A stretch of DNA of 64,000 nucleotides from a virus. The notes beneath the pieces were generated by a model. It was not told the DNA's origin and ran no database searches. It saw only the letters and a program-made list of their open reading frames with translations. A program made the position numbers and the translations under genes. Positions within the stretch are counted from its first letter, which is position 1, and every line of letters begins with the position of its first letter. The stretch lies in IMG/VR virus record IMGVR_UViG_3300044680_000048, positions 1 through 64,000 of that record. One strand, given 5' to 3'. Of this stretch, positions 11,239 to 56,282 are shown piece after piece.

Positions 11239-11285
11239 GGGAAGACTTATTCCTTTGTAATAGTCTTCCCGTCTTCTGTCTTTTC
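11239..11285 (+). terminator. candidate intrinsic terminator
   Basis: GGGAAGACT (11239-11247) pairs with AGTCTTCCC (11262-11270), then T-rich GTCTTCTGTCTTTT; the loop is long (14 nt). Confidence 0.45.
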
Positions 11286-11307
11286 AACTCCGAAGATGAT
11301 CCCGGCA

Positions 11308-11377
11308 CATAAAATAGTTACCATTTGACCTTTCCTTAAACTGTCTGATACCCTAGTAATGTTAACCAAATGAAGGG
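11308..11377 (+). repeat. copy A of a ~68-bp conserved intergenic element
   Basis: CATAAAATAGTTACCATTTGACCTTTCCTTAAACTGTCTGATACCCTAGTAATGTTAACCAAATG.. about 85-90% identical to 13461-13526. Confidence 0.85.
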
Positions 11378-13246: not shown

Positions 13247-13460
13247 CTAAAAGAGAATTAGATAAGATTAATAAGGCAATTCTTAAGGCAAAGTCTGATA
13301 ATAAAAAATGGAAAAGGTCCATCAATTACATTGGGGATTGAAAAGTAAGAGAGAAAGGTTTATGTATTTTCATAAATTTCAATCAATCTTTGCGGAACCC
13401 TAATTATTAAGTGCTAAATGGAGATACTTTCTAAGTTATGCTTATGCTAGAGACATAGCC

Positions 13461-13526
13461 CATAAAATAGTTATCATTTGACCTTCCCTTAACTTCTGAT
13501 ACTCTAGTAATGTACCAAATGGGAGG
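13461..13526 (+). repeat. copy B of the ~68-bp conserved intergenic element
   Basis: Aligns with 11308-11377; ends at the RBS of the 13536 gene. Confidence 0.85.
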
Positions 13527-13535
13527 ATAGAGGCT

Positions 13536-18427: not shown

Positions 18428-19145
18428 GAAGTAGGCTCCTACTTGGTCAGGCAATCCCTACTACAACTTGTAGTTGTCAACCCTTTGTCAACAAATATTA
18501 CATTAGAAGAAATTAACTTGACAAATACAAAAATATCCAAGACGCTTTGCCTGGCTGTTCAATTATGGTTTATAGTAGAATGTGCCCTTGCGGATGAACT
18601 TATATAGTGTAGTAAGCAGCGTCTTACTATTCCGGCAAGACAGTTTATTACTGTCTATCTTAGTAGGGTGAACGTCTTGGTTATGTGCTCGTTCTCGCCT
18701 GGAATGACTCCAGGAATCCCCATACACATTATTGTATCAATTACAAGTTATATATCTCTTATTTTGATGTTCCGGTCATCTTAGTATTGCCGCAAAGGCA
18801 ATACAGTATTACAATACAGAGCATTTGCCTTATACGGCGTCTTTTAGATGTTCTGCTTATGAGTACACCTTACCGGAAGATAGTTTATTAGAGACGCCTA
18901 GCAGGCGCCACAAGCTTATTACCTCTACTAGTAGTAGCTATTAGTTGTATTAGTAGGGCTAGAGGTATTATTTAACTTGACTTGCCGGCAAAGCAGTAGT
19001 AGGTTGACAAACCTACTACTATGTGGTAGATATCTACTGCCTTACCATACATCATCTTACTGTGTGTATGTATTGCCGGAAGGCAATACTATATCTGTAT
19101 GTGGTATATTGGAATAGTAAGGCACAAGACAAAGAGGGACCGGCA

Positions 19146-25291: not shown

Positions 25292-25501
25292 ATGGTTACG
25301 ATTGCGGAAATTACTACAGTTCTAGATCAGCTTGTTGCTGATGCCCAGAAATTTGCTACGGTAGAGCCTACCTTTCTGACAGAACTTACGACAGCAGTAG
25401 CTGCTGTTAAGGCTGTTATTCCTACTAGTACTCTAAAAGGTCTAGAAGCAGGTGCAGTTGCAGATCTACATAAATTTGAAGCTCTTTTTAAAAAGAAATA
25501 A
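25292..25501 (+). CDS. hypothetical Ala/Val-rich helical protein (69 aa), lone + strand gene
   Basis: ORF track; followed by a strong terminator. Confidence 0.5.
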   Translation: MVTIAEITTVLDQLVADAQKFATVEPTFLTELTTAVAAVKAVIPTSTLKGLEAGAVADLHKFEALFKKK

Positions 25502-25527
25502 TCTTTTTTGCGGACTACTTAAAAATT

Positions 25528-25560
25528 AAGACTCCCAATTGGGAGTCTTTTTGTTGTTTA
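25528..25560 (+). terminator. intrinsic terminator
   Basis: AAGACTCCC-AATT-GGGAGTCTT followed by TTTGTTGTTT. Confidence 0.8.
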
Positions 25561-25580
25561 CTGTACAGTAAATATTAAAA

Positions 25581-25612
25581 AGGCTCCGTTTCCGAAGCCC
25601 TTTCTTTTTTTG
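25581..25612. terminator. bidirectional terminator-like hairpin
   Basis: GGCTCCG-TTTC-CGAAGCC (one mismatch) with T-runs on both strands; lies just after the minus-strand stop at 25617. Confidence 0.55.
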
Positions 25613-32055: not shown

Positions 32056-34372
32056 TTGTTTTAGGTCCTACGTTGAGATAAGGAGTTACCCAGTTAATTT
32101 CTGCATATCTTGCTACTTGAAGAGTTAATATTCCCGGAGGAGTAAAGCTCACTGTTTCTATTATTCCGGTAACAGTCACTTCATCAACAGTAGCGGAAGC
32201 CAACATTCCAGGAACAGGCATTACGCCAAAGAAGACACAATTTATGGTCCCTTGGTAAGTTTTAACATATTGGGTTACATTAGAAGGTACTTGAACAGCC
32301 GCTGCTCCACTTAAACCTTTACGGGTAACAGCAATATCAAAAGAGAAGTTTCCGGCAGCTACATCTGGGTTATTTGCTGGGAAGAACCTACTATCAATGG
32401 TAATAATTGGGGTATACACATTTCCCCGCAAGACAGATGTAATATATGTATCAGCTAAAGGAACAGATTCCGCAAAGTTATACCAAAGTTCTGAATTAGT
32501 TGTAACAATGCTGTAGTTGTAGGAGGCTAGGGAGTTAAAAGAAGCACTTCCGGCATTATTAGGATCAGTAATGAGAATTCGGGCATACACCTCATCATAA
32601 TCAAATGGCAAGTCTATAACAACCGGTGGATCGGAAGTAGTTAATAATTTACTAATACTTCTGACCTGGGTTACGGGCTCAGATGAAGTTCCAGCCGATG
32701 GAGCATTGCCGGAATTACCAGAATTGGAAGGATTGGTTACAAAAATGACATTAGCAAAATTTAATACAGGAGTAGGTATCGAATATACTCCTTGGTTAGG
32801 ACTGAATGGGATAGGAGTCTCAACTCCACCAATTCCATATTCTAAGTCTTCTAATTCTTCCCAGAAGAGTCCATTAGCGGTAATAAGCTTGGCGGAAGGA
32901 ATCGCAAAAGCCCCAATAGAATAGTTAGGAGAACAGACAGTATAATTAAGACCACCACTCCATCTAAGAACTCCCCCTACATATCCCGCAAGAGATTGAA
33001 GAGCAGAGAGTAAAGTCATTGTTGGTTGAATAGTAAACTGTTGGCTTAAAGCATTGTCAAAAGTGGTCCAAGTTAGATTAATTCCCACTCTTCGGGCTAA
33101 AGCAAGAGCTGTTTCTTTAACAGAGAAGTATCTAGAGCTGGTAAGAGGAACTACAACTTCTTTACCCGAGGTGTCTACTGCCAGAGCAGTTTGAGAATTA
33201 GCGAATAGTAGCCCGTATTGGGAAAAATTAGCATTTAATTGATTAAATAACACCGTATTATATAGTACATCAGCAATAGAGGTTCCACCATTAGCACCCC
33301 TACCTAGAATAAAGGAAAGTTGCTTATTTAGTAGAGGACTGCTTGCAAATATCCCCCTAGAAGCATAACCCTTGGCAGAATTTGAAACAATGTTCTCTGA
33401 TCCATTACCACCAGCAGTGATAATTGCGCTTAATCCAAATACACCAATAATGTCCCCATCATTACCAACAGTATTGAGGGAAGTTACACTCCAAGTTCCT
33501 CCTAAATAGTCTAAGCTTAAGGAGAAATTAAACATTTGTCCCCAATTGTTATTAGGAACATTGGAGTTAGGAATATCCACATAAACAGCAGTAGAAGGTG
33601 TTGCCGGAGGCACTCCTATAATAGTTGTTCCCCCAACAGCAACATTAGGACTAAAGGTGTTAGGCTGATAAACTCCATTGATAGTAGTTCCACTAGCAGC
33701 AGTAACACCTACAAGAGTAGCTACCTGTCCCCCAATGTCTACGGTGTATTTACCACCCTCTAATAGGGTTTGACCATAGACCTTAGTAGTGTATGCGGGA
33801 CATTCCAAGATTTGCCCTACTATCTTAACAGTACACTGCCGGTTAAGAATAGGAAGGGGCTCAATAAAAGACTCTTCTGTTCCTAGATTTTCATAGTAGG
33901 TTAATTTGATTATCTGGGAATAATAACTATTAACACCGCTGTTTTCAAAGGAGATATCAGGAGAAGCAGAAGCATAGTTTTCTACTAAGCCCAGATTCTC
34001 ATAATAAGTTTGAGAAACTGTTTGGGTGAAGAAATCCCCAAAACCCCCTACTTCCGTTGCTATTGCCGGAAGTTCGGAATAAACATCCTGAGTTCCTACA
34101 TTTTCATAATATGTCTGACTAACTGTCTGGGAGTAGTAATCATTGAGTCCGGCATTCTCTATTACTGTTCCGGTGGCTATATTCGCAAAGGTCAGAAGAT
34201 ACTGAAACCCGGTATTCTTAAAAGAAGTATGAGTGGAAGTACTTCCTTCAGCAATAAAGGATTGGTAAGCTTTGGCGGAAGACTGATAAGGAGAAGTTAG
34301 TCCAGTATGGGTTGAATTACTGTTCTCATTCTGGAAATTAACATGTACTGGATTGATGTCAAAGTGGGACAC
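32045..34372 (-). CDS. tail/baseplate structural protein (775 aa) with N-terminal ..SQTYYEN.G.. repeats
   Basis: Four ~25-30 aa repeats near residues 70-180; position in the tail operon. Confidence 0.6.
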   Translation of the reverse strand: MSHFDINPVHVNFQNENSNSTHTGLTSPYQSSAKAYQSFIAEGSTSTHTSFKNTGFQYLLTFANIATGTVIENAGLNDYYSQTVSQTYYENVGTQDVYSELPAIATEVGGFGDFFTQTVSQTYYENLGLVENYASASPDISFENSGVNSYYSQIIKLTYYENLGTEESFIEPLPILNRQCTVKIVGQILECPAYTTKVYGQTLLEGGKYTVDIGGQVATLVGVTAASGTTINGVYQPNTFSPNVAVGGTTIIGVPPATPSTAVYVDIPNSNVPNNNWGQMFNFSLSLDYLGGTWSVTSLNTVGNDGDIIGVFGLSAIITAGGNGSENIVSNSAKGYASRGIFASSPLLNKQLSFILGRGANGGTSIADVLYNTVLFNQLNANFSQYGLLFANSQTALAVDTSGKEVVVPLTSSRYFSVKETALALARRVGINLTWTTFDNALSQQFTIQPTMTLLSALQSLAGYVGGVLRWSGGLNYTVCSPNYSIGAFAIPSAKLITANGLFWEELEDLEYGIGGVETPIPFSPNQGVYSIPTPVLNFANVIFVTNPSNSGNSGNAPSAGTSSEPVTQVRSISKLLTTSDPPVVIDLPFDYDEVYARILITDPNNAGSASFNSLASYNYSIVTTNSELWYNFAESVPLADTYITSVLRGNVYTPIITIDSRFFPANNPDVAAGNFSFDIAVTRKGLSGAAAVQVPSNVTQYVKTYQGTINCVFFGVMPVPGMLASATVDEVTVTGIIETVSFTPPGILTLQVARYAEINWVTPYLNVGPKTSGT

Positions 34373-43977: not shown

Positions 43978-44511
43978 CTAAAACGGACTAATGCCGGTTT
44001 GATTCATTAGAGTTATCAATGCTGAGTTAGCTTCTTTATGGAAGAGTTGGATAGTAGCGTCCCGCTGGTTCCAGAAAAAGTTTAGGGGAATATCTGTTTG
44101 TACTTTTTTACTTCTAACAATTTGCCAATTTACAATAACTTCACATTGGGGAATGAAAATACTGCTTCCGGAAGTATTAACTCCATCCCATAACAAGAGG
44201 GAATATTGTTGCCCAGAAGGAGGAGAATCTTGTGCTGCCGTAACCCAGTTAGACATTGCCAGGCAAATTGCCTGCGGATCATCGCTAATAAAGGTAAGGG
44301 AAACCTTGATTCCGGGAAGACCTTCTTGTACTGTTCCATTAACACAAGCTTTCCACCCAGACTTAGGAAGGTTATATCCTACCGTATAATTTCCCGTCCC
44401 AATAATATTCACTTGAGTTAGGGGAACTCCGGAAGCTCCATATTGACCCACATACATTGAAGTAAAGGGACCGAAAACAAATTTAAATACTGCCAAGAAA
44501 AAAATCCCCAC
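43978..44511 (-). CDS. tail tube / tail-module protein candidate (177 aa; true start possibly Met19)
   Basis: Position directly upstream of the chaperone, as for tube proteins; positional inference. Confidence 0.5.
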   Translation of the reverse strand: MGIFFLAVFKFVFGPFTSMYVGQYGASGVPLTQVNIIGTGNYTVGYNLPKSGWKACVNGTVQEGLPGIKVSLTFISDDPQAICLAMSNWVTAAQDSPPSGQQYSLLLWDGVNTSGSSIFIPQCEVIVNWQIVRSKKVQTDIPLNFFWNQRDATIQLFHKEANSALITLMNQTGISPF

Positions 44512-44554
44512 TTATTACAGTAGGGATTCTAACTTTTAGATTTTACTTAATTAG

Positions 44555-46233: not shown

Positions 46234-46853
46234 TATGTTCTATCCGCCTGTTCTAGGTTGAGGATACAAATATTATCCTTATAATCTACTAGGGTAATTT
46301 GCCATACATCATTGGACCCAACTCCAGGAGTTTGGTCTATTAATTTCATCCCTTCAACTATTCCGGCACGTTTATAAATTACTGCTCTTTTAGTAGGAGT
46401 ATTGAGGGAAGTAGTTTGAGCAGGAAAAGTATCCCTTCCGGCAATGAGATTAATGGAATACTCAAATAGGACATTAGAGTATATAGTATTCTGTCCATCA
46501 GTAATACTTCCGGTTTTAGTAGTCTTAAATCCTAGAAATTGATGCATTTCTGGGACTTGTAGCATGGTCATTACCGGAAAGTCATTAGTGGTGGTTTCTT
46601 GGATTATATAACCAGGAGAGAGGGAAGTTCTATCCCCACAGACTATGAATAACTCCATATCTCTATACTTATCTTGGGCAAATTTATCATTACAAGCTTC
46701 TACATGAAGCTTTCTTCCCGTCAAGTAGGGTTGAGGAGTTCCGTCCACCCTAGTGTATATGGGGGAAGAGATATTCCAATAGTAATCCCCGCCTGCCAAT
46801 TTGGCAGTCATTATCTTATAGGTATACTCTATTCGGCTTAGGCGGTTAGACAT
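46233..46853 (-). CDS. virion structural protein (206 aa)
   Basis: ORF track. Confidence 0.5.
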   Translation of the reverse strand: MSNRLSRIEYTYKIMTAKLAGGDYYWNISSPIYTRVDGTPQPYLTGRKLHVEACNDKFAQDKYRDMELFIVCGDRTSLSPGYIIQETTTNDFPVMTMLQVPEMHQFLGFKTTKTGSITDGQNTIYSNVLFEYSINLIAGRDTFPAQTTSLNTPTKRAVIYKRAGIVEGMKLIDQTPGVGSNDVWQITLVDYKDNICILNLEQADRT

Positions 46854-46854
46854 A

Positions 46855-47862
46855 TTAGTTCAAAATAACGTATTCGGACAATTCCCCTCTAATCTGGTCA
46901 ATCAGGGGAGTATCCTTAAATGTAACTTTCCAAGAGCCATCTTGGAGGGAAGATATTCCGGCATTGTTCTCTAAGATTGCTGACATTAATCTGTAGAGAG
47001 CAGCCTGAACTGTTACTGGGATTTTATAGTTTCCGCCAACATAAGAAATCTTAATTTCATTACCAAAGCTAGAGGGCTCATACGAGTAATAAGCATTCTG
47101 GGAAGGTATGTATTGTAATTCTCCGGTTCTTCTAATATAGTTCCACATAACACTGGCGGAACCCCCTAAGAAAATACCAAAGAGGGAAAAGGTATAAGGG
47201 CGTTTAGCCCATACTCCATCAAACCAGAGGCCGGGAATAGATTCCCTAAGGAAGAATGACCGCTGCCAATAGCCCGCCTCTTCATGGACCCTACATGTCA
47301 TTACTATGCGGTTATTGAGCATTGATATAAGTCTTGAGGAAGCAATTTCAATCAAACTTATAATCTGAGTATTAGTTAGAGGGGTACCATTAACATCAGT
47401 TAAGACTAATCCATTAATAGGACCTTCATTTTGGGCTTCCGCTAACGTACATAAAAGAGGAGTTTCGGAAATCTTATAAAGGATTCCGGTTGAATCATTA
47501 ATGAGGGAAATCTCATAGTCACATTCACTAAAGAAGGTGAGGACATTCTCTGAGATGTTTACTCTCCAGAGGGCTAAACCCAACTGAGAGCTGAAGACGG
47601 GGAATCCATTAGGATCAATTGTACTGTTGCTAGTAAATTGCGGTTGCCCCGTAAATAAAAATCCATACTGCTGTAACTGTATAGTCAGCTGGGTTTGAGC
47701 GGCAAAAGCCACAGCGTTTTCGTTCATAGAAGTCACAATTCCAGTTACAGGTAAATTAAATAGAACTTGATTAAACGCAGCATCAATACTTTGAAATTGG
47801 ATTGAAAAACCACCAGAAGAGGCCGCACTTTGACAAATGCTAAGTGAAATTAATCTTTCCAA
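46855..47862 (-). CDS. virion structural protein (335 aa), first gene of the tail operon; start uncertain (TTG)
   Basis: ORF track; no in-frame ATG near the 5' end; AAGG directly abuts the TTG. Confidence 0.5.
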   Translation of the reverse strand: MERLISLSICQSAASSGGFSIQFQSIDAAFNQVLFNLPVTGIVTSMNENAVAFAAQTQLTIQLQQYGFLFTGQPQFTSNSTIDPNGFPVFSSQLGLALWRVNISENVLTFFSECDYEISLINDSTGILYKISETPLLCTLAEAQNEGPINGLVLTDVNGTPLTNTQIISLIEIASSRLISMLNNRIVMTCRVHEEAGYWQRSFFLRESIPGLWFDGVWAKRPYTFSLFGIFLGGSASVMWNYIRRTGELQYIPSQNAYYSYEPSSFGNEIKISYVGGNYKIPVTVQAALYRLMSAILENNAGISSLQDGSWKVTFKDTPLIDQIRGELSEYVILN

Positions 47863-48100
47863 CCTTGGTTTTCCTAAACATTGTAGTATACTATTGATTG
47901 TAGTCTAACAGGAGCTTAACAGAGATTGGTACAAGAAAGAGAAAATTTAATAGGAGTATGCTAAAACTGGTTCTTATACTGCCTCCTTAGAAGACGTTAA
48001 GAAACATATTCAAAAGCATGGTGGGAAAGTAGAAATTTACTGCTAATGGGTAGTACTCTTCCCATTAAGCCCCGTTTTAAGAGTTAATGGGTACACATTA

Positions 48101-48126
48101 ACAGAAAAACCTCCCTCAGGGGAGGC
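48101..48126 (-). terminator. minus-strand intrinsic terminator inside the ORF-free region
   Basis: Minus strand reads CCTCCC-CTGA-GGGAGG followed by TTTTTCTGT; no T-run on the plus strand. Confidence 0.6.
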
Positions 48127-48690
48127 TACTACTAATGTTATTTTAGTATCTGCGGCAGTCTTACGACTACCCACCACCAACTTTCGTCGATGGGGCCTAA
48201 GAGCAAGTCTTAGGGTGGATTTCCTTCTACGTTATTCCGGCTAGTTACTTAAAACTCTCCATCGGTATACCCCAAGGGACCAAGAATAACGGCTTATGAA
48301 GGAAGTTAAATGAAGAAGGGGTTCGAACCTTTAGTTTCCCTTAAAGAAACTCCTTAATCATTTAATTACTCTTCCGGCAAGATTTTACTTGCATCTTCCT
48401 CTGTACAATCGAGGGCTTTAATTAAGCGACGGAAGTTAGATTGTCTTCCACGGTGGTCACGATCATTACCTACCCTGAAGACTTTGTAGGTTATCAACCT
48501 ACAACTTAAAGTTGATTTCCGAAATAAGAACGTCATATCAACTTAATAGCTAGATATTTTAGTACTACTATTTAGCTATCTTGGGGGGAAGAAGTACGCA
48601 GAATTCTGTTCCCTCTTCCTTGTATATTTATTTTACCATACCTTTCCGGAAGTTACAATCTCAAAAGTGTTAAATTTTTAGGAGAAGAAG

Positions 48691-49071
48691 ATGAAACGAC
48701 CGGAAGGTTACTTTGGAAAACTACTAACAGTAGATTTTCTAGGTATAAGATCTGAACTCCTAGTAGATAAAGAGTTAATGGCTGAGGTTTCCCGTCAAGT
48801 TATTAGTCTTGCGGCAATGACCATAATACAAGGTCCAGACATTTTCTATTATGAGCACCCAACAGACCCATTAGAGAGTGGACTTACCGGATGTACTATC
48901 CTCTCAGAAAGTCACTTCACATTTCACTCGTTCCAGAGAAGCGGGTTCCTAACCCTAGATCTGTATAGCTGTTCAGATTTTATTCCGGAAACAATTATAA
49001 GTTACCTAAAGGGTGTATTTAACCCAACTTCAATGGAAACTAATGTTCACCTTAGAGGGAAGGGATACTAG
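48691..49071 (+). CDS. speD: S-adenosylmethionine decarboxylase proenzyme (small pyruvoyl type)
   Basis: ..GLTGCTILSESHFTFHSF...LTLDLYSCS.. aligns with the ..VISESHLTIHTWPE...IDLFTCG self-cleavage and active-site core. Confidence 0.8.
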   Translation: MKRPEGYFGKLLTVDFLGIRSELLVDKELMAEVSRQVISLAAMTIIQGPDIFYYEHPTDPLESGLTGCTILSESHFTFHSFQRSGFLTLDLYSCSDFIPETIISYLKGVFNPTSMETNVHLRGKGY

Positions 49072-49493
49072 GGTTTAATAACTCCTGCTTCTAGTTCGTC
49101 TCTTGTATATTCTATTTGTTCATCAATAAGTCCTGGGTCATAATAAGGTTCCGGAAAGTTAATTAATTTAACTGTTTGAGAATATGTATTGTAGATGCCT
49201 ACAGCTATTCCCGTAGGAATATGTAGAGTACCACCAGTAGCTAAAACGTACTCTTTGGGTCCTGGTATACCTGGTTTGAAGAGAGTTACCTTTGCTGTTC
49301 CTTCTACACAGACATAATTAGAAGCTCTAATCTTATGTAGGTGAAACCCCTTGAAACAGTAGGGCTTAACGGTAGTCAAATAGGCTACTGTATGCTCCCC
49401 GTCTTTCTTTAATTCCATTAACTCACCATTAGTGAGATAGCCGGAAGAGTAGGTAATAACCTGCTTAGCCCAGCCAAGTTTTCCAAATTCCAT
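49068..49493 (-). CDS. RmlC-like cupin (sugar epimerase/ketoisomerase-like)
   Basis: 141 aa; KGFHLHK...YVCVEGTAKVTLF...LHIPTGIAVG cupin motifs; by-eye call. Confidence 0.55.
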   Translation of the reverse strand: MEFGKLGWAKQVITYSSGYLTNGELMELKKDGEHTVAYLTTVKPYCFKGFHLHKIRASNYVCVEGTAKVTLFKPGIPGPKEYVLATGGTLHIPTGIAVGIYNTYSQTVKLINFPEPYYDPGLIDEQIEYTRDELEAGVIKP

Positions 49494-49495
49494 AA

Positions 49496-49762
49496 TTATC
49501 TAACCTCTTGAAGCATACGTGCTAGACGGGGATGGCAATAATAACCTTCCTTTTCTAGTAAAACTTTAACAGCAAGAAGGGCGTCATGTCCATTCATTAG
49601 ACGCTTATACTTCTCTAAAGGCATATATCTTACTTTACCCTTAATCTTGCCGGAAGTATTTCTTTTCTTGCTATTAAAGTTATTCCGGCACCTAATAGTG
49701 CAGTAGATATGAGCCGGATGTTTCATCTCAAACTGCCTTCCGCAATTGTCACAGATATCCAT
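49496..49762 (-). CDS. zinc-ribbon small protein (88 aa)
   Basis: CDNCGRQF...YCTIRC pattern. Confidence 0.55.
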   Translation of the reverse strand: MDICDNCGRQFEMKHPAHIYCTIRCRNNFNSKKRNTSGKIKGKVRYMPLEKYKRLMNGHDALLAVKVLLEKEGYYCHPRLARMLQEVR

Positions 49763-49774
49763 GAAAAATTCCTC

Positions 49775-50077
49775 CTAATTGTTACCTAACTTTTTTAACT
49801 TGAAGAACTTTATAATCCGTTTAAGTGTTTTTGGTATATCATAACCTTCGGTTATATCTTCCATATATGAAACAGTCTCTCTATAACCTATATGTAAGTC
49901 TATGTAAGCCTCATTATCAATTAAAGATATATCTGCCCGAAGGTTCTTCCGGACCCAGGAGAAATAAATACAGTTACTATCTACTATCTTAAAATAGTCC
50001 TTATTTAATTTGGGTTCCATTGACTCTAGCCAAACTTCTAGAGCCTTGGATCGATTTTCACATAAATTGGTTCTCAT
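49775..50077 (-). CDS. hypothetical protein (100 aa)
   Basis: ORF track. Confidence 0.55.
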   Translation of the reverse strand: MRTNLCENRSKALEVWLESMEPKLNKDYFKIVDSNCIYFSWVRKNLRADISLIDNEAYIDLHIGYRETVSYMEDITEGYDIPKTLKRIIKFFKLKKLGNN

Positions 50078-56203: not shown

Positions 56204-56282
56204 AGTAGGGTAGGGGAGTCTGGTCGTCCCCGCAAGGCTCATAACCTTGAGATCGTGAGTTCAAATCTCACCCTTGCAACCA
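56204..56282 (+). tRNA. tRNA with CAU anticodon (Met; Ile2/initiator not excluded), encoded CCA
   Basis: Hand-folded cloverleaf. Acceptor 56204-10/56272-78 has 6 of 7 pairs with an A1xA72 mismatch. D stem GGGG/CCCC. Anticodon stem CAAGG/CCTTG with loop CTCATAA. Variable loop AGATC. T arm GTGAG-TTCAAAT-CTCAC. Discriminator A plus CCA. Confidence 0.78.

What the first reader, a model, noticed from the sequence alone, without database searches (positions are those of the whole stretch)
47863..48690. 828-bp region without any ORF of 60 aa or more in six frames, containing stable hairpins and a minus-strand terminator
This is among the largest non-coding gaps in a very dense genome. It lies between the divergent tail operon start (47862) and speD (48691).

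It contains a unidirectional minus-strand terminator: CCTCCC-CTGA-GGGAGG plus TTTTTCTGT, at 48101-48126. Nothing annotated could end there.

Several strong stems are also present: CCTAAGA-GCAAG-TCTTAGG at 48196-48214, TGTAGGTT-ATC-AACCTACA at 48485-48503, and GTTTC-CCTTAAA-GAAAC at 48334-48350.

Two readings fit. One is a ~0.5-kb structured ncRNA transcribed on the minus strand; large ornate RNAs are known from phages. The other is read-through antisense to speD from the 50834-49068 operon.
Basis: partly seen in the sequence, partly recalled or inferred. Interest (0 to 1): 0.6.

Follow-up and report, generated by a model that had tools for sequence, protein, structure and literature searches.

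The report
Orphan structured noncoding RNA unit in phage
The largest gene-free stretch of this uncultured 112-kb peat phage most likely makes a roughly 0.5-kb, strongly folded RNA with no protein product, but no related copy exists elsewhere, so its fold and function cannot yet be checked.

Summary
Window 47863-48690 has no ORF of 60 aa or more, no coding signal and no protein-family match. It is the largest ORF-free stretch of a 111,990-bp phage genome with terminal repeats. All four hairpins are at the stated coordinates.

Every relative of the adjacent structural gene lacks this stretch. A cupin-like gene abuts the structural gene there, so speD plus the 828 nt is an insertion private to this phage.

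The minus strand folds far better than shuffles (528 nt, z -6.3). Window 48100-48349 (minus) ranks 1 of 447 genome-wide, and two GNRA-capped hairpins fold only on that strand.

A sigma-70-like promoter (48658-48630) and a good intrinsic terminator (48127-48108) bracket about 515 nt. Contigs from two metatranscriptomes cover 48276-48608 and both stop at 48607/8, while DNA contigs run on.

Rfam gives nothing (GOLLD, ROOL, tmRNA, riboswitches); tRNA scores below threshold.

Best reading (about 0.5): an autonomous, ORF-less promoter-to-terminator unit, an "RNA moron", at the head of the 22-kb structural operon. The RNA's strand and 3' end are not shown, and covariation is untestable.

Rivals: a terminated leader of the late operon, a plus-strand speD leader, or a 56-aa orphan ORF. 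The scan has noted similar orphan phage RNA units on other DNA.

The parts
48630..48658 (-). Promoter-like site for the noncoding unit: -35 TTGTAA (48658-48653), 17-nt spacer, TG-extended -10 TAAAAT (48635-48630). The predicted start is near 48623.
   Evidence: 9 of 12 matches, TG present; sequence read. It is a consensus match only, and such sites are not enriched over shuffles here. RNA contigs end 15 nt downstream of the predicted start.
48443..48619 (-). 5' part of the RNA: five consecutive hairpins.
   Evidence: MFE and centroid structures agree. Strand preference is weak in this part.
48306..48435 (-). Two cloverleaf-like modules. F (48371-48435) is a 6-bp closing stem with three arms.
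   Evidence: The Rfam tRNA model scores only 15.4 bits against a gathering score of 29. ARAGORN finds them only at relaxed thresholds.
48130..48304 (-). 3' domain, the best-folding and most strand-specific part. H 48221-48304 (84-nt branched), I 48196-48214, J 48174-48193 (GAAA loop), K 48151-48173 (GUAA loop), L 48130-48148 (A/U-rich).
   Evidence: 150-nt windows give z -5.6 and -5.2 on minus against -2.0 and -1.2 on plus. It ranks 1 of 447 genome-wide. J and K fold only on the minus strand.
48100..48127 (-). Intrinsic terminator: 8-bp stem AGCCUCCC/GGGAGGUU, CUGA loop, then UUUCUGUU.
   Evidence: In a genome-wide census of 13 such hairpins, 6 lie in the ~7% intergenic DNA. They include operon-end terminators at 44501-44530 (-) and 25528-25549, and a look-alike at 64976-64997 (-).
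48276..48608 (.). Stretch present in RNA libraries: a 333-nt contig (depth 7.8) in X3 and a 192-nt contig (48416-48607) in X5.
   Evidence: Both contigs stop at 48607/8 without loose ends, while DNA contigs of X2 and X4 cross that point. Contigs do not give the strand.
48366..48536 (-). 56-aa ATG ORF inside the transcribed stretch; doubtful as a gene.
   Evidence: No homologue in 1.84 billion representatives. No Pfam or PHROG match. Coding score falls in the lowest ~10%. AlphaFold pLDDT is 59. The Atlas feature hit to Cro/XRE HTH proteins scores 0.90 with only 134 of 256 shared features.
48632..48659 (+). Promoter-like site for speD (TTTACC, 16 nt, TACAAT), back to back with the minus-strand promoter.
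   Evidence: consensus match only.
48691..49071 (+). speD (S-adenosylmethionine decarboxylase proenzyme, 126 aa), co-inserted with the noncoding stretch. It overlaps the stop of the convergent cupin-like gene by 4 nt.
   Evidence: PF02675 at 1.3e-18. No close homologue in the 5.8-billion-protein word-index search. The best phage matches are 29-33% identical.
47863..48099 (-). Poorly folded, AT-rich spacer between the terminator and the first structural gene. It holds a promoter-like site (TAGACT, 16 nt, TACAAT, 47907-47880) and a tandem TAKACTACAAT pair.
   Evidence: D11; z about 0 to +1.
46855..47862 (-). First gene (335 aa, TTG start) of the 26-gene minus-strand structural block 47862-25617.
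   Evidence: Its homologues in relatives sit directly downstream of a cupin-like gene.

Best explanation
The gap holds an autonomous, protein-less transcription unit on the minus strand, best described as a moron whose payload is an RNA.

A sigma-70-type promoter (48658-48630) is predicted to start transcription near 48623. The transcript folds co-transcriptionally into about 13 consecutive local modules (A-M), and the intrinsic terminator at 48127-48108 ends it, giving an RNA of about 515 nt.

The unit was inserted, together with the oppositely oriented speD gene, between a cupin-like gene and the first gene of the 22-kb structural operon. These two genes are adjacent in all known relatives.

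What is shown:
- the stretch is noncoding;
- it is an insertion;
- it folds exceptionally well, and in its 3' half only on the minus strand;
- part of it is present in RNA libraries with a sharp shared boundary near the predicted start.

What is inferred:
- the strand of the detected RNA;
- that one transcript runs from the promoter to the terminator;
- that the RNA acts in trans, as a stable scaffold, decoy or base-pairing RNA whose A/U-rich stretch plus terminator resembles an sRNA 3' end;
- that its terminator also shields the structural operon from upstream and antisense-speD transcription.
For: Noncoding:
- no ORF of 60 aa or more;
- codon-usage score mostly in the lowest 1-12% of genome windows, one window (48050-48199) near the 37th percentile;
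- no Pfam or PHROG match for any frame;
- no homologue of the 62-aa or 56-aa frames.

Insertion: seven relatives (41-62% identical structural gene) have only 40-170 nt upstream of that gene, five of them directly after a cupin-like gene. None shows DNA or translated similarity to the gap.

Structure:
- z -7.3 for 828 nt and -6.3 for 528 nt on the minus strand;
- MFE and centroid structures agree on the modules;
- 48100-48349 (minus) ranks 1 of 447 genome-wide, against 95 of 447 for the plus strand;
- hairpins J and K, with GAAA and GUAA loops, fold at -9.9 and -11.8 kcal/mol on minus against -1.0 and -5.7 on plus.

Signals: an extended -10 promoter and a terminator lie on the same strand 515 nt apart. 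Terminators of this type are strongly enriched in intergenic DNA of this genome.

Expression: RNA-library contigs cover 48276-48608 and 48416-48607 in two samples and share an end at 48607/8, 15 nt from the predicted start. DNA contigs cross that point. No RNA contig lies over speD, over its antisense, or over the structural gene.
Against: - The strand of the RNA contigs is unknown, and they do not reach the terminator. The best-folded part (48100-48275) has no RNA contig.
- Both RNA runs come from one study, and the runs were selected for holding this stretch.
- Promoter-like and terminator-like consensus hits are no more frequent here than in shuffles.
- No homologue was found anywhere, so there is no covariation evidence at all.
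- The 5' half (48350-48620) folds only moderately and without strand preference.
- A 56-aa ORF lies wholly inside the RNA-covered stretch.
Confidence: 0.5

Rival explanations
1. Terminated leader of the late structural operon. The minus-strand promoter at 48658-48630 is the operon's promoter, the 515-nt structured RNA is its leader, and the terminator at 48127-48108 is a conditional stop. A phage factor or the leader's own fold would override it, as in lambda PR'-6S RNA-tR' with Q, HK022 put, or the conditionally terminated 5'UTR RNAs of phiKZ.
For: The unit sits directly upstream of, and points the same way as, a 26-gene block. That block also has an internal intrinsic terminator at 44501-44530, which long transcripts would have to pass. 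RNA contigs cover the leader but not the first structural gene, as expected for premature termination. Short, conditionally terminated 5'UTR RNAs are documented in phiKZ (PMC10914365).
Against: The terminator lies 245 nt from the first start codon, with a separate promoter-like site in between (47907-47880). Relatives run the same operon without any such leader. No antiterminator gene, alternative antiterminator pairing or pause signal was identified; none was systematically searched for.
Confidence: 0.2
2. Plus-strand leader of speD. The RNA over 48276-48608 is a long 5' leader that ends at the plus-strand hairpin 48587-48619 followed by a U-rich tract, acting as an attenuator or riboswitch-like control of speD.
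For: The RNA contigs stop about 15-20 nt short of where such a plus-strand hairpin terminator would release RNA, and speD itself has no RNA contig. The plus strand folds slightly better than minus in 48450-48599, and window 48350-48599 (plus) ranks 9 of 447.
Against: No plus-strand promoter-like site lies between 47863 and 48276, while one sits just upstream of speD at 48632-48659, downstream of the supposed attenuator. The hairpin is weaker on plus (-9.3 against -12.2 kcal/mol, an A.C mismatch in place of G.U) and its T-tract is interrupted. No riboswitch family matches. The strongest structure, 48100-48300, is minus-specific.
Confidence: 0.1
3. mRNA of a small orphan protein. The transcript mainly serves to express the 56-aa ORF at 48366-48536 (minus), possibly a minimal Cro/XRE-like DNA-binding protein placed between divergent promoters.
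For: The RNA contig 48276-48608 encloses the ORF completely. Atlas language-model features place it next to Cro/C1-type HTH clusters at 0.90.
Against: - No homologue in 1.84 billion representatives.
- No Pfam match even at E up to 10.
- Only 134 of 256 shared features, a range the tool describes as typical of chance hits.
- Low coding score.
- No Shine-Dalgarno sequence, and the AUG is buried in stem C.
- A perfect 9-bp hairpin lies inside the frame.
- AlphaFold pLDDT is 59.
- It would explain only 171 of 828 nt, and not the best-folded 3' domain.
Confidence: 0.1
4. Non-functional leftover. The stretch is decayed foreign DNA (for example a dead tRNA cluster or dead genes) dragged in with speD, and it is transcribed only incidentally.
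For: The region is private to one phage. Two cloverleaf-like modules with a GGUUCGAACC motif give a weak tRNA hit and relaxed ARAGORN calls. No function can be assigned.
Against: No residual coding signal or frame similarity remains. Only one weak tRNA hit (15.4 bits, E = 7) was found over the whole stretch. Decay should erode folding, not leave the best-folding, strand-specific window of the genome bracketed by an intact promoter-like site and terminator. The sequence is 99-100% identical in contigs from a 2018 peat sample and from a lake-water sample.
Confidence: 0.1

Closest known systems
Phage morons: autonomous promoter-gene-terminator units inserted between conserved late genes (Juhala et al. 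2000 as cited in PMC10914365; Cumby et al. 2012, PMC3594210)
   Same: It is extra DNA absent from relatives, inserted between two genes that are adjacent in related phages, inside the structural region. It has its own promoter-like site and factor-independent terminator.
   Different: The payload has no credible ORF. G+C is not distinct from the rest of the genome. The phage has terminal repeats and no sign of lysogeny was examined, so expression from a repressed prophage, the classic moron setting, is not shown.
Lambda PR'-6S RNA-tR' late leader (Q antitermination), and conditionally terminated 5'UTR RNAs of phiKZ (PMC10914365)
   Same: A promoter-proximal, terminated, ORF-less transcript lies directly upstream of, and points the same way as, a long late or structural operon.
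   Different: It is 515 nt rather than 194 nt or less. It lies 245 nt from the first gene, with another promoter-like site in between. It is absent from relatives that have the same operon, and no antiterminator was identified.
Large ornate RNAs of phages and prophages: GOLLD (RF01998) and ROOL (RF03087)
   Same: Size class (about 0.5 kb), phage location, many helices including GNRA-capped hairpins, and no known partner protein.
   Different: No covariance-model match at any threshold. The predicted fold is a string of local hairpins without the long-range multi-stem architecture of those RNAs. No family of homologues exists.
tRNA genes or tRNA-like elements (RF00005)
   Same: Modules F and G draw as cloverleaves of about 65 nt, and G carries GGUUCGAACC, a T-loop-like word.
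   Different: The score is 15.4 bits against a threshold of 29. The D arm and conserved tertiary nucleotides are missing, and the T stem is 2 bp or mismatched. ARAGORN at default settings finds only the genuine tRNA-Met at 56204.

Membership tests
GOLLD / ROOL / HEARO / OLE / raiA and all other Rfam 15 families | Match to the family covariance model at or above its gathering score | tested here: not met
   The whole window at gathering thresholds gives only tRNA-Met at 56204. Region 47600-48900 at E up to 10 gives three sub-threshold chance-level hits. The rest of the genome gives none.
tRNA | RF00005 score of 29 bits or more, or an ARAGORN call at default settings; canonical D, anticodon and T arms | tested here: not met
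   15.4 bits, E = 7, at 48311-48375 on minus. ARAGORN at default settings finds none. Calls appear only at relaxed settings (-ps80, or mitochondrial mode), with defective arms.
tmRNA | tRNA-like domain plus tag reading frame, detected by ARAGORN or the Rfam tmRNA models | tested here: not met
   No call at default settings. No Rfam match. Only a meaningless permuted call on the plus strand at the relaxed ARAGORN setting -ps80.
Phage moron | Present in this phage but absent between the same two genes in relatives | tested here: met
   In loci L004, L005, L006 and L008 the homologue of the structural gene follows its upstream neighbour within about 40-80 nt (a cupin-like gene in L004, L005, L008). 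L002 and L003 carry other small inserts at the same spot.
Phage moron | Own promoter | tested here: inconclusive
   TTGTAA, 17 nt, TG-extended TAAAAT, and an RNA contig boundary 15 nt downstream of the predicted start in two samples. It remains a consensus match only, and the RNA's strand is unknown.
Phage moron | Own factor-independent terminator | tested here: met
   An 8-bp, GC-rich stem with a tetraloop and T-run at 48127-48100, of the same type as the operon-end terminators of this genome. This holds by sequence; termination was not measured.
Phage moron | A protein-coding payload | tested here: not met
   No credible ORF.
Phage moron | Base composition different from the surrounding genome | tested here: not met
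   G+C is 0.33-0.46 across the gap against 0.32-0.47 in the flanks.
Lambda-type late leader with processive antitermination | A terminated leader upstream of the late operon, plus an antiterminator (Q-like protein with its binding and pause site, or a put-like RNA) | not tested
   The architecture fits, but no search for an antiterminator protein or pause element was made. Read-through cannot be measured with these tools.
Riboswitch or attenuator leader of speD | A plus-strand transcript from an upstream promoter, a known aptamer, and a terminator just before the gene | tested here: not met
   No aptamer family matches. No plus-strand promoter-like site lies upstream of 48276. The plus-strand hairpin is weaker than its minus-strand counterpart. 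The strand of the RNA is untested.
Cro/XRE-type HTH protein (56-aa ORF) | Match to HTH_3 / HTH_26 or to homologous proteins; a confident helical fold | tested here: not met
   No Pfam match at E up to 10. phmmer against 1.84 billion proteins finds only the ORF itself. pLDDT is 59. The Atlas feature score of 0.90 comes with a low shared-feature count.

The most novel reading that the evidence does not exclude
The stretch encodes the founding member of an undescribed class of large (~0.5 kb), multi-module phage RNA. It would be carried on a mobile, ORF-less cassette and would either gate expression of the 22-kb structural operon through its terminator, or act in trans as a decoy or scaffold against a host factor, for example through its tRNA-like modules F and G.
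Probability: 0.12. Interest if true: 0.65.

Novelty: new member of a known kind. Interest (0 to 1): 0.42.

Why it matters
Phage genomes are usually annotated for proteins only. Promoter-to-terminator units with no ORF are increasingly seen by transcript-end mapping (PMC10914365), but few have a function.

This case has two uncommon points. Comparison with relatives shows that the RNA unit is a recent insertion at a known hotspot for accessory genes. It also sits exactly at the head of the structural operon, so it may both add a function and rewire late transcription.

If the RNA proves stable and functional, it would show that morons can carry RNA payloads. It would also add a new large structured RNA to a very short list.

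As it stands it is a single orphan sequence, so the value is that of a well-defined candidate for experiment, not of a demonstrated new system.

Tried and rejected
Homologue searches, all empty:
- blastn ('distant' mode) against 50,697 phage records;
- blastn and tblastx against seven relatives' loci and against the phage's own genome;
- the scan's own index of look-alike stretches;
- exact-word scans of viral contigs (the two hits are chance 18-mers), of metagenome contigs and of genome contigs;
- The search for related loci with the structural protein and with speD;
- speD has no close homologue that could carry the same neighbour.

Hypotheses rejected:
- Decayed gene: no residual frame, family match or coding signal.
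- tRNA array: one sub-threshold hit only.
- Mobile element with terminal inverted repeats: the only end-to-end pairing is between the two divergent ribosome-binding sites.
- Replication origin: no iterons, no GC-skew extreme near 48 kb, and folding that is strand-specific and therefore acts at RNA level.
- Csr/Rsm-type sponge: the many GGA words are mostly paired with UCC and reflect the genome-wide excess of CTTCCGG-type words.
- Genome-wide promoter motif around ACTACAAT: not repeated elsewhere.
- Conserved upstream region shared with relatives: no alignment.

Parts of the laid stretch without RNA contigs (speD, its antisense, the structural gene, 48100-48275) are not evidence of silence.

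X4 (lake water) has 99-100% identical pieces at 48129-48338 and 48565-48747, next to a diverged piece of the structural gene. At depth 2.6-4 this cannot distinguish 'the same phage' from 'a conserved cassette in another phage'.

Full report
**Source and observation.** The window is the first 64 kb of a 111,990-bp virus record with direct terminal repeats. Near-identical DNA occurs in peat metagenomes.

Window 47863-48690 has no ORF of 60 aa or more in six frames. The longest ORFs with a start codon are 56, 45 and 30 aa, and the longest stop-to-stop frames are 62 and 65 aa.

The right flank is a 126-aa S-adenosylmethionine decarboxylase proenzyme (PF02675, 1.3e-18). The left flank is the first of 26 consecutive minus-strand genes, 47862 down to 25617.

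The stretch is the largest ORF-free one in the genome. The single longer 'gap' from my crude gene caller contains an open 247-aa family-2 glycosyltransferase frame.

**It is not coding.** A codon-usage log-odds score trained on the phage's own genes puts most of the gap in the lowest 1-12% of genome windows; the one exception, 48050-48199, reaches the 37th percentile. No frame is sustained.
- No stop-free frame matches Pfam or PHROGs, even at E = 1.
- The 62-aa frame has no homologue.
- The 56-aa ORF has none among 1.84 billion representatives.
- The three minus-strand frames show no shifted remnants of a gene.

**It is an insertion.** The 335-aa structural protein has eight relatives at 41-62% identity. 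I fetched seven loci.
- In L004, L005 and L008 a cupin-like gene, the homologue of window 49068-49493, ends about 40-60 nt before the structural gene on the same strand.
- L002 and L003 carry other small genes at that spot, including an RNA ligase.
- None has a large noncoding stretch there, and none shows DNA or translated similarity to the gap.

So speD (opposite strand) plus the 828 nt is extra DNA at a hotspot for accessory insertions.

**Folding.**
- The 828 nt fold at -239.9 kcal/mol on minus (z -7.3) and -230.5 on plus (z -4.4), with 20 shuffles each.
- The 528 nt from the predicted start to the terminator give z -6.3 with 100 shuffles, and the MFE and centroid structures agree on nearly all helices.
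- In 150-nt windows the signal peaks at 48050-48250: z -5.6 and -5.2 on minus, against -2.0 and -1.2 on plus.
- Across the whole genome in 250-nt windows, adjusted for G+C, 48100-48349 (minus) ranks 1 of 447 (plus: 95). Window 48350-48599 ranks 18 on minus and 9 on plus.

The fold is a string of 13 local modules, A-M. Modules J and K are adjacent hairpins with GAAA and GUAA loops. They are stable only on the minus strand (-9.9 and -11.8 kcal/mol against -1.0 and -5.7), because their G.U pairs become A.C on the other strand.

This strand specificity argues for selection at the RNA level on the minus strand, at least for 48100-48300. The 5' half is only moderately structured and shows no strand preference.

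**Signals.** On the minus strand, TTGTAA, a 17-nt spacer and a TG-extended TAAAAT (48658-48630) predict a start near 48623. About 515 nt downstream lies an 8-bp GC-rich hairpin with a tetraloop and T-run (48127-48100).

The loose consensus scans are not enriched over shuffles in this region. A stricter genome-wide census finds only 13 such terminators, 6 of them in the ~7% of DNA that is intergenic. They include hairpins at the ends of gene blocks (44501-44530, 25528-25549) and a close look-alike at 64976-64997. The terminator is therefore probably real.

A plus-strand promoter-like site for speD (48632-48659) lies back to back with the minus-strand one. Another promoter-like site (47907-47880) lies between the terminator and the structural gene.

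**Expression.** Of seven public runs that hold part of the stretch, two are metatranscriptomes from one study. Over 46500-50000:
- X3 has a 333-nt contig at 48276-48608 (depth 7.8) and a 151-nt contig at 49502-49652.
- X5 has one contig, at 48416-48607.
- Both stop at 48607/8 without loose ends, whereas DNA contigs of X2 and X4 run across that point.

A shared boundary within 1 nt in two samples is unlikely for stray DNA. It lies 15 nt inside the predicted minus-strand start, about what short-read assemblies lose at a transcript end.

Contigs give no strand, however. The same boundary would also fit a plus-strand RNA ending at the hairpin 48587-48619. The contigs also do not reach the terminator. 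I therefore treat transcription of 48276-48608 as shown, and its strand and full extent as inferred.

**Comparison with known families.** Rfam 15 gives nothing at gathering thresholds except the genuine tRNA-Met at 56204. At E up to 10 there are only three chance-level hits, the best-known being tRNA at 15.4 bits against a gathering score of 29, over module G.

ARAGORN at default settings finds no tRNA or tmRNA in the gap. Relaxed settings draw modules F, G and D as defective cloverleaves. Membership in GOLLD, ROOL, tmRNA, tRNA or any riboswitch family is therefore tested and not met.

By architecture the unit matches the definition of a moron: an independently acquired module with its own promoter and terminator, inserted between conserved genes (PMC3594210; PMC10914365). 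The differences are that its payload is not a protein and its G+C is not distinct.

Its position also recalls promoter-proximal terminated leaders of late operons, such as the lambda 6S RNA (my own knowledge) and the conditionally terminated 5'UTR RNAs of phiKZ (PMC10914365).

**The 56-aa ORF.** The ORF at 48366-48536 (minus) lies wholly inside the RNA contig, so I tested it. The evidence against it:
- no homologue;
- no family match;
- a weak PDB hit at E = 1.3;
- pLDDT of 59;
- low coding score;
- no ribosome-binding site, and a start codon buried in stem C.

The only point in its favour is an Atlas feature similarity of 0.90 to Cro/XRE HTH clusters. It comes with 134 of 256 shared features, a range the tool itself flags as typical of chance hits. 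I give it about 10%.

It remains an orphan. No homologue was found by any available route, so the fold has no comparative support and the function is open.

The rivals, with my confidence in each:
- a terminated leader of the structural operon (0.2);
- a plus-strand speD leader (0.1);
- an mRNA for the small ORF (0.1);
- a functionless leftover (0.1).

Earlier notes of this scan describe comparable orphan promoter-to-terminator RNA units in other phages. They are on unrelated DNA and were not tested here.

Noticed in passing
whole genome, e.g. window 48371, 48644, 48646, 48700, 49149: CCGG-centred words are hugely over-represented. TTCCGG/CCGGAA occurs 310 times against about 30 expected, and the palindrome TTCCGGAA 33 times against about 1.4. 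They occur in all codon phases and in intergenic DNA, while CpG overall is depleted (observed/expected 0.52). About 22% of all CG dinucleotides sit in CCGG. Earlier readers of this scan noted the same thing.
   Followed up: partly
window 11260-11369 and 13430-13535: Two gene starts share a near-identical promoter cassette of about 40 nt (ATTTGACCyTTCCCTTAA...CTAGTAATG). Other block-start genes (25248, 50834, 69157) carry TTGACC as a -35 box. The phage therefore seems to use host sigma-70-type promoters with a TTGACC / TAGTA(A)T flavour.
   Followed up: no
window 49068-49071: speD (+) and the cupin-like gene (-) converge and overlap by 4 nt, with no terminator between them. speD transcripts must therefore run antisense into the cupin operon, and the reverse.
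   Followed up: no
L004:5930-5975, L005:5945-5985, L006:900-930, L008:1395-1420: In the relatives, the short spacer between the cupin-like gene and the structural gene contains a hairpin (for example AGAATCCT/AGGATTCT in L004). A processing or attenuation signal at this junction may therefore be ancestral.
   Followed up: no
genome 85731-86673 (L010:1731-2673), outside the window: A simple ATG/GTG/TTG ORF caller leaves a 943-nt hole here, but the stretch holds an open 247-aa frame with a strong family-2 glycosyltransferase match (6.6e-28). The start codon or upstream frame of this gene deserves a look.
   Followed up: partly
genome 70350-70599 (+), 75100-75349, window 18850-19099, 33850-34099: These are other 250-nt windows with unusually low GC-adjusted folding energy (z -2.3 to -3.5). 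Window 25350-25599 also stands out and contains the bidirectional terminator at 25528-25549.
   Followed up: no
window 44501-44530 (-): A strong intrinsic terminator (12-bp stem followed by TTTTTTCTT) lies just downstream of the 307-aa gene, inside the 26-gene minus-strand structural block. It divides the block into an upstream part (47862-44555) and a downstream part.
   Followed up: no
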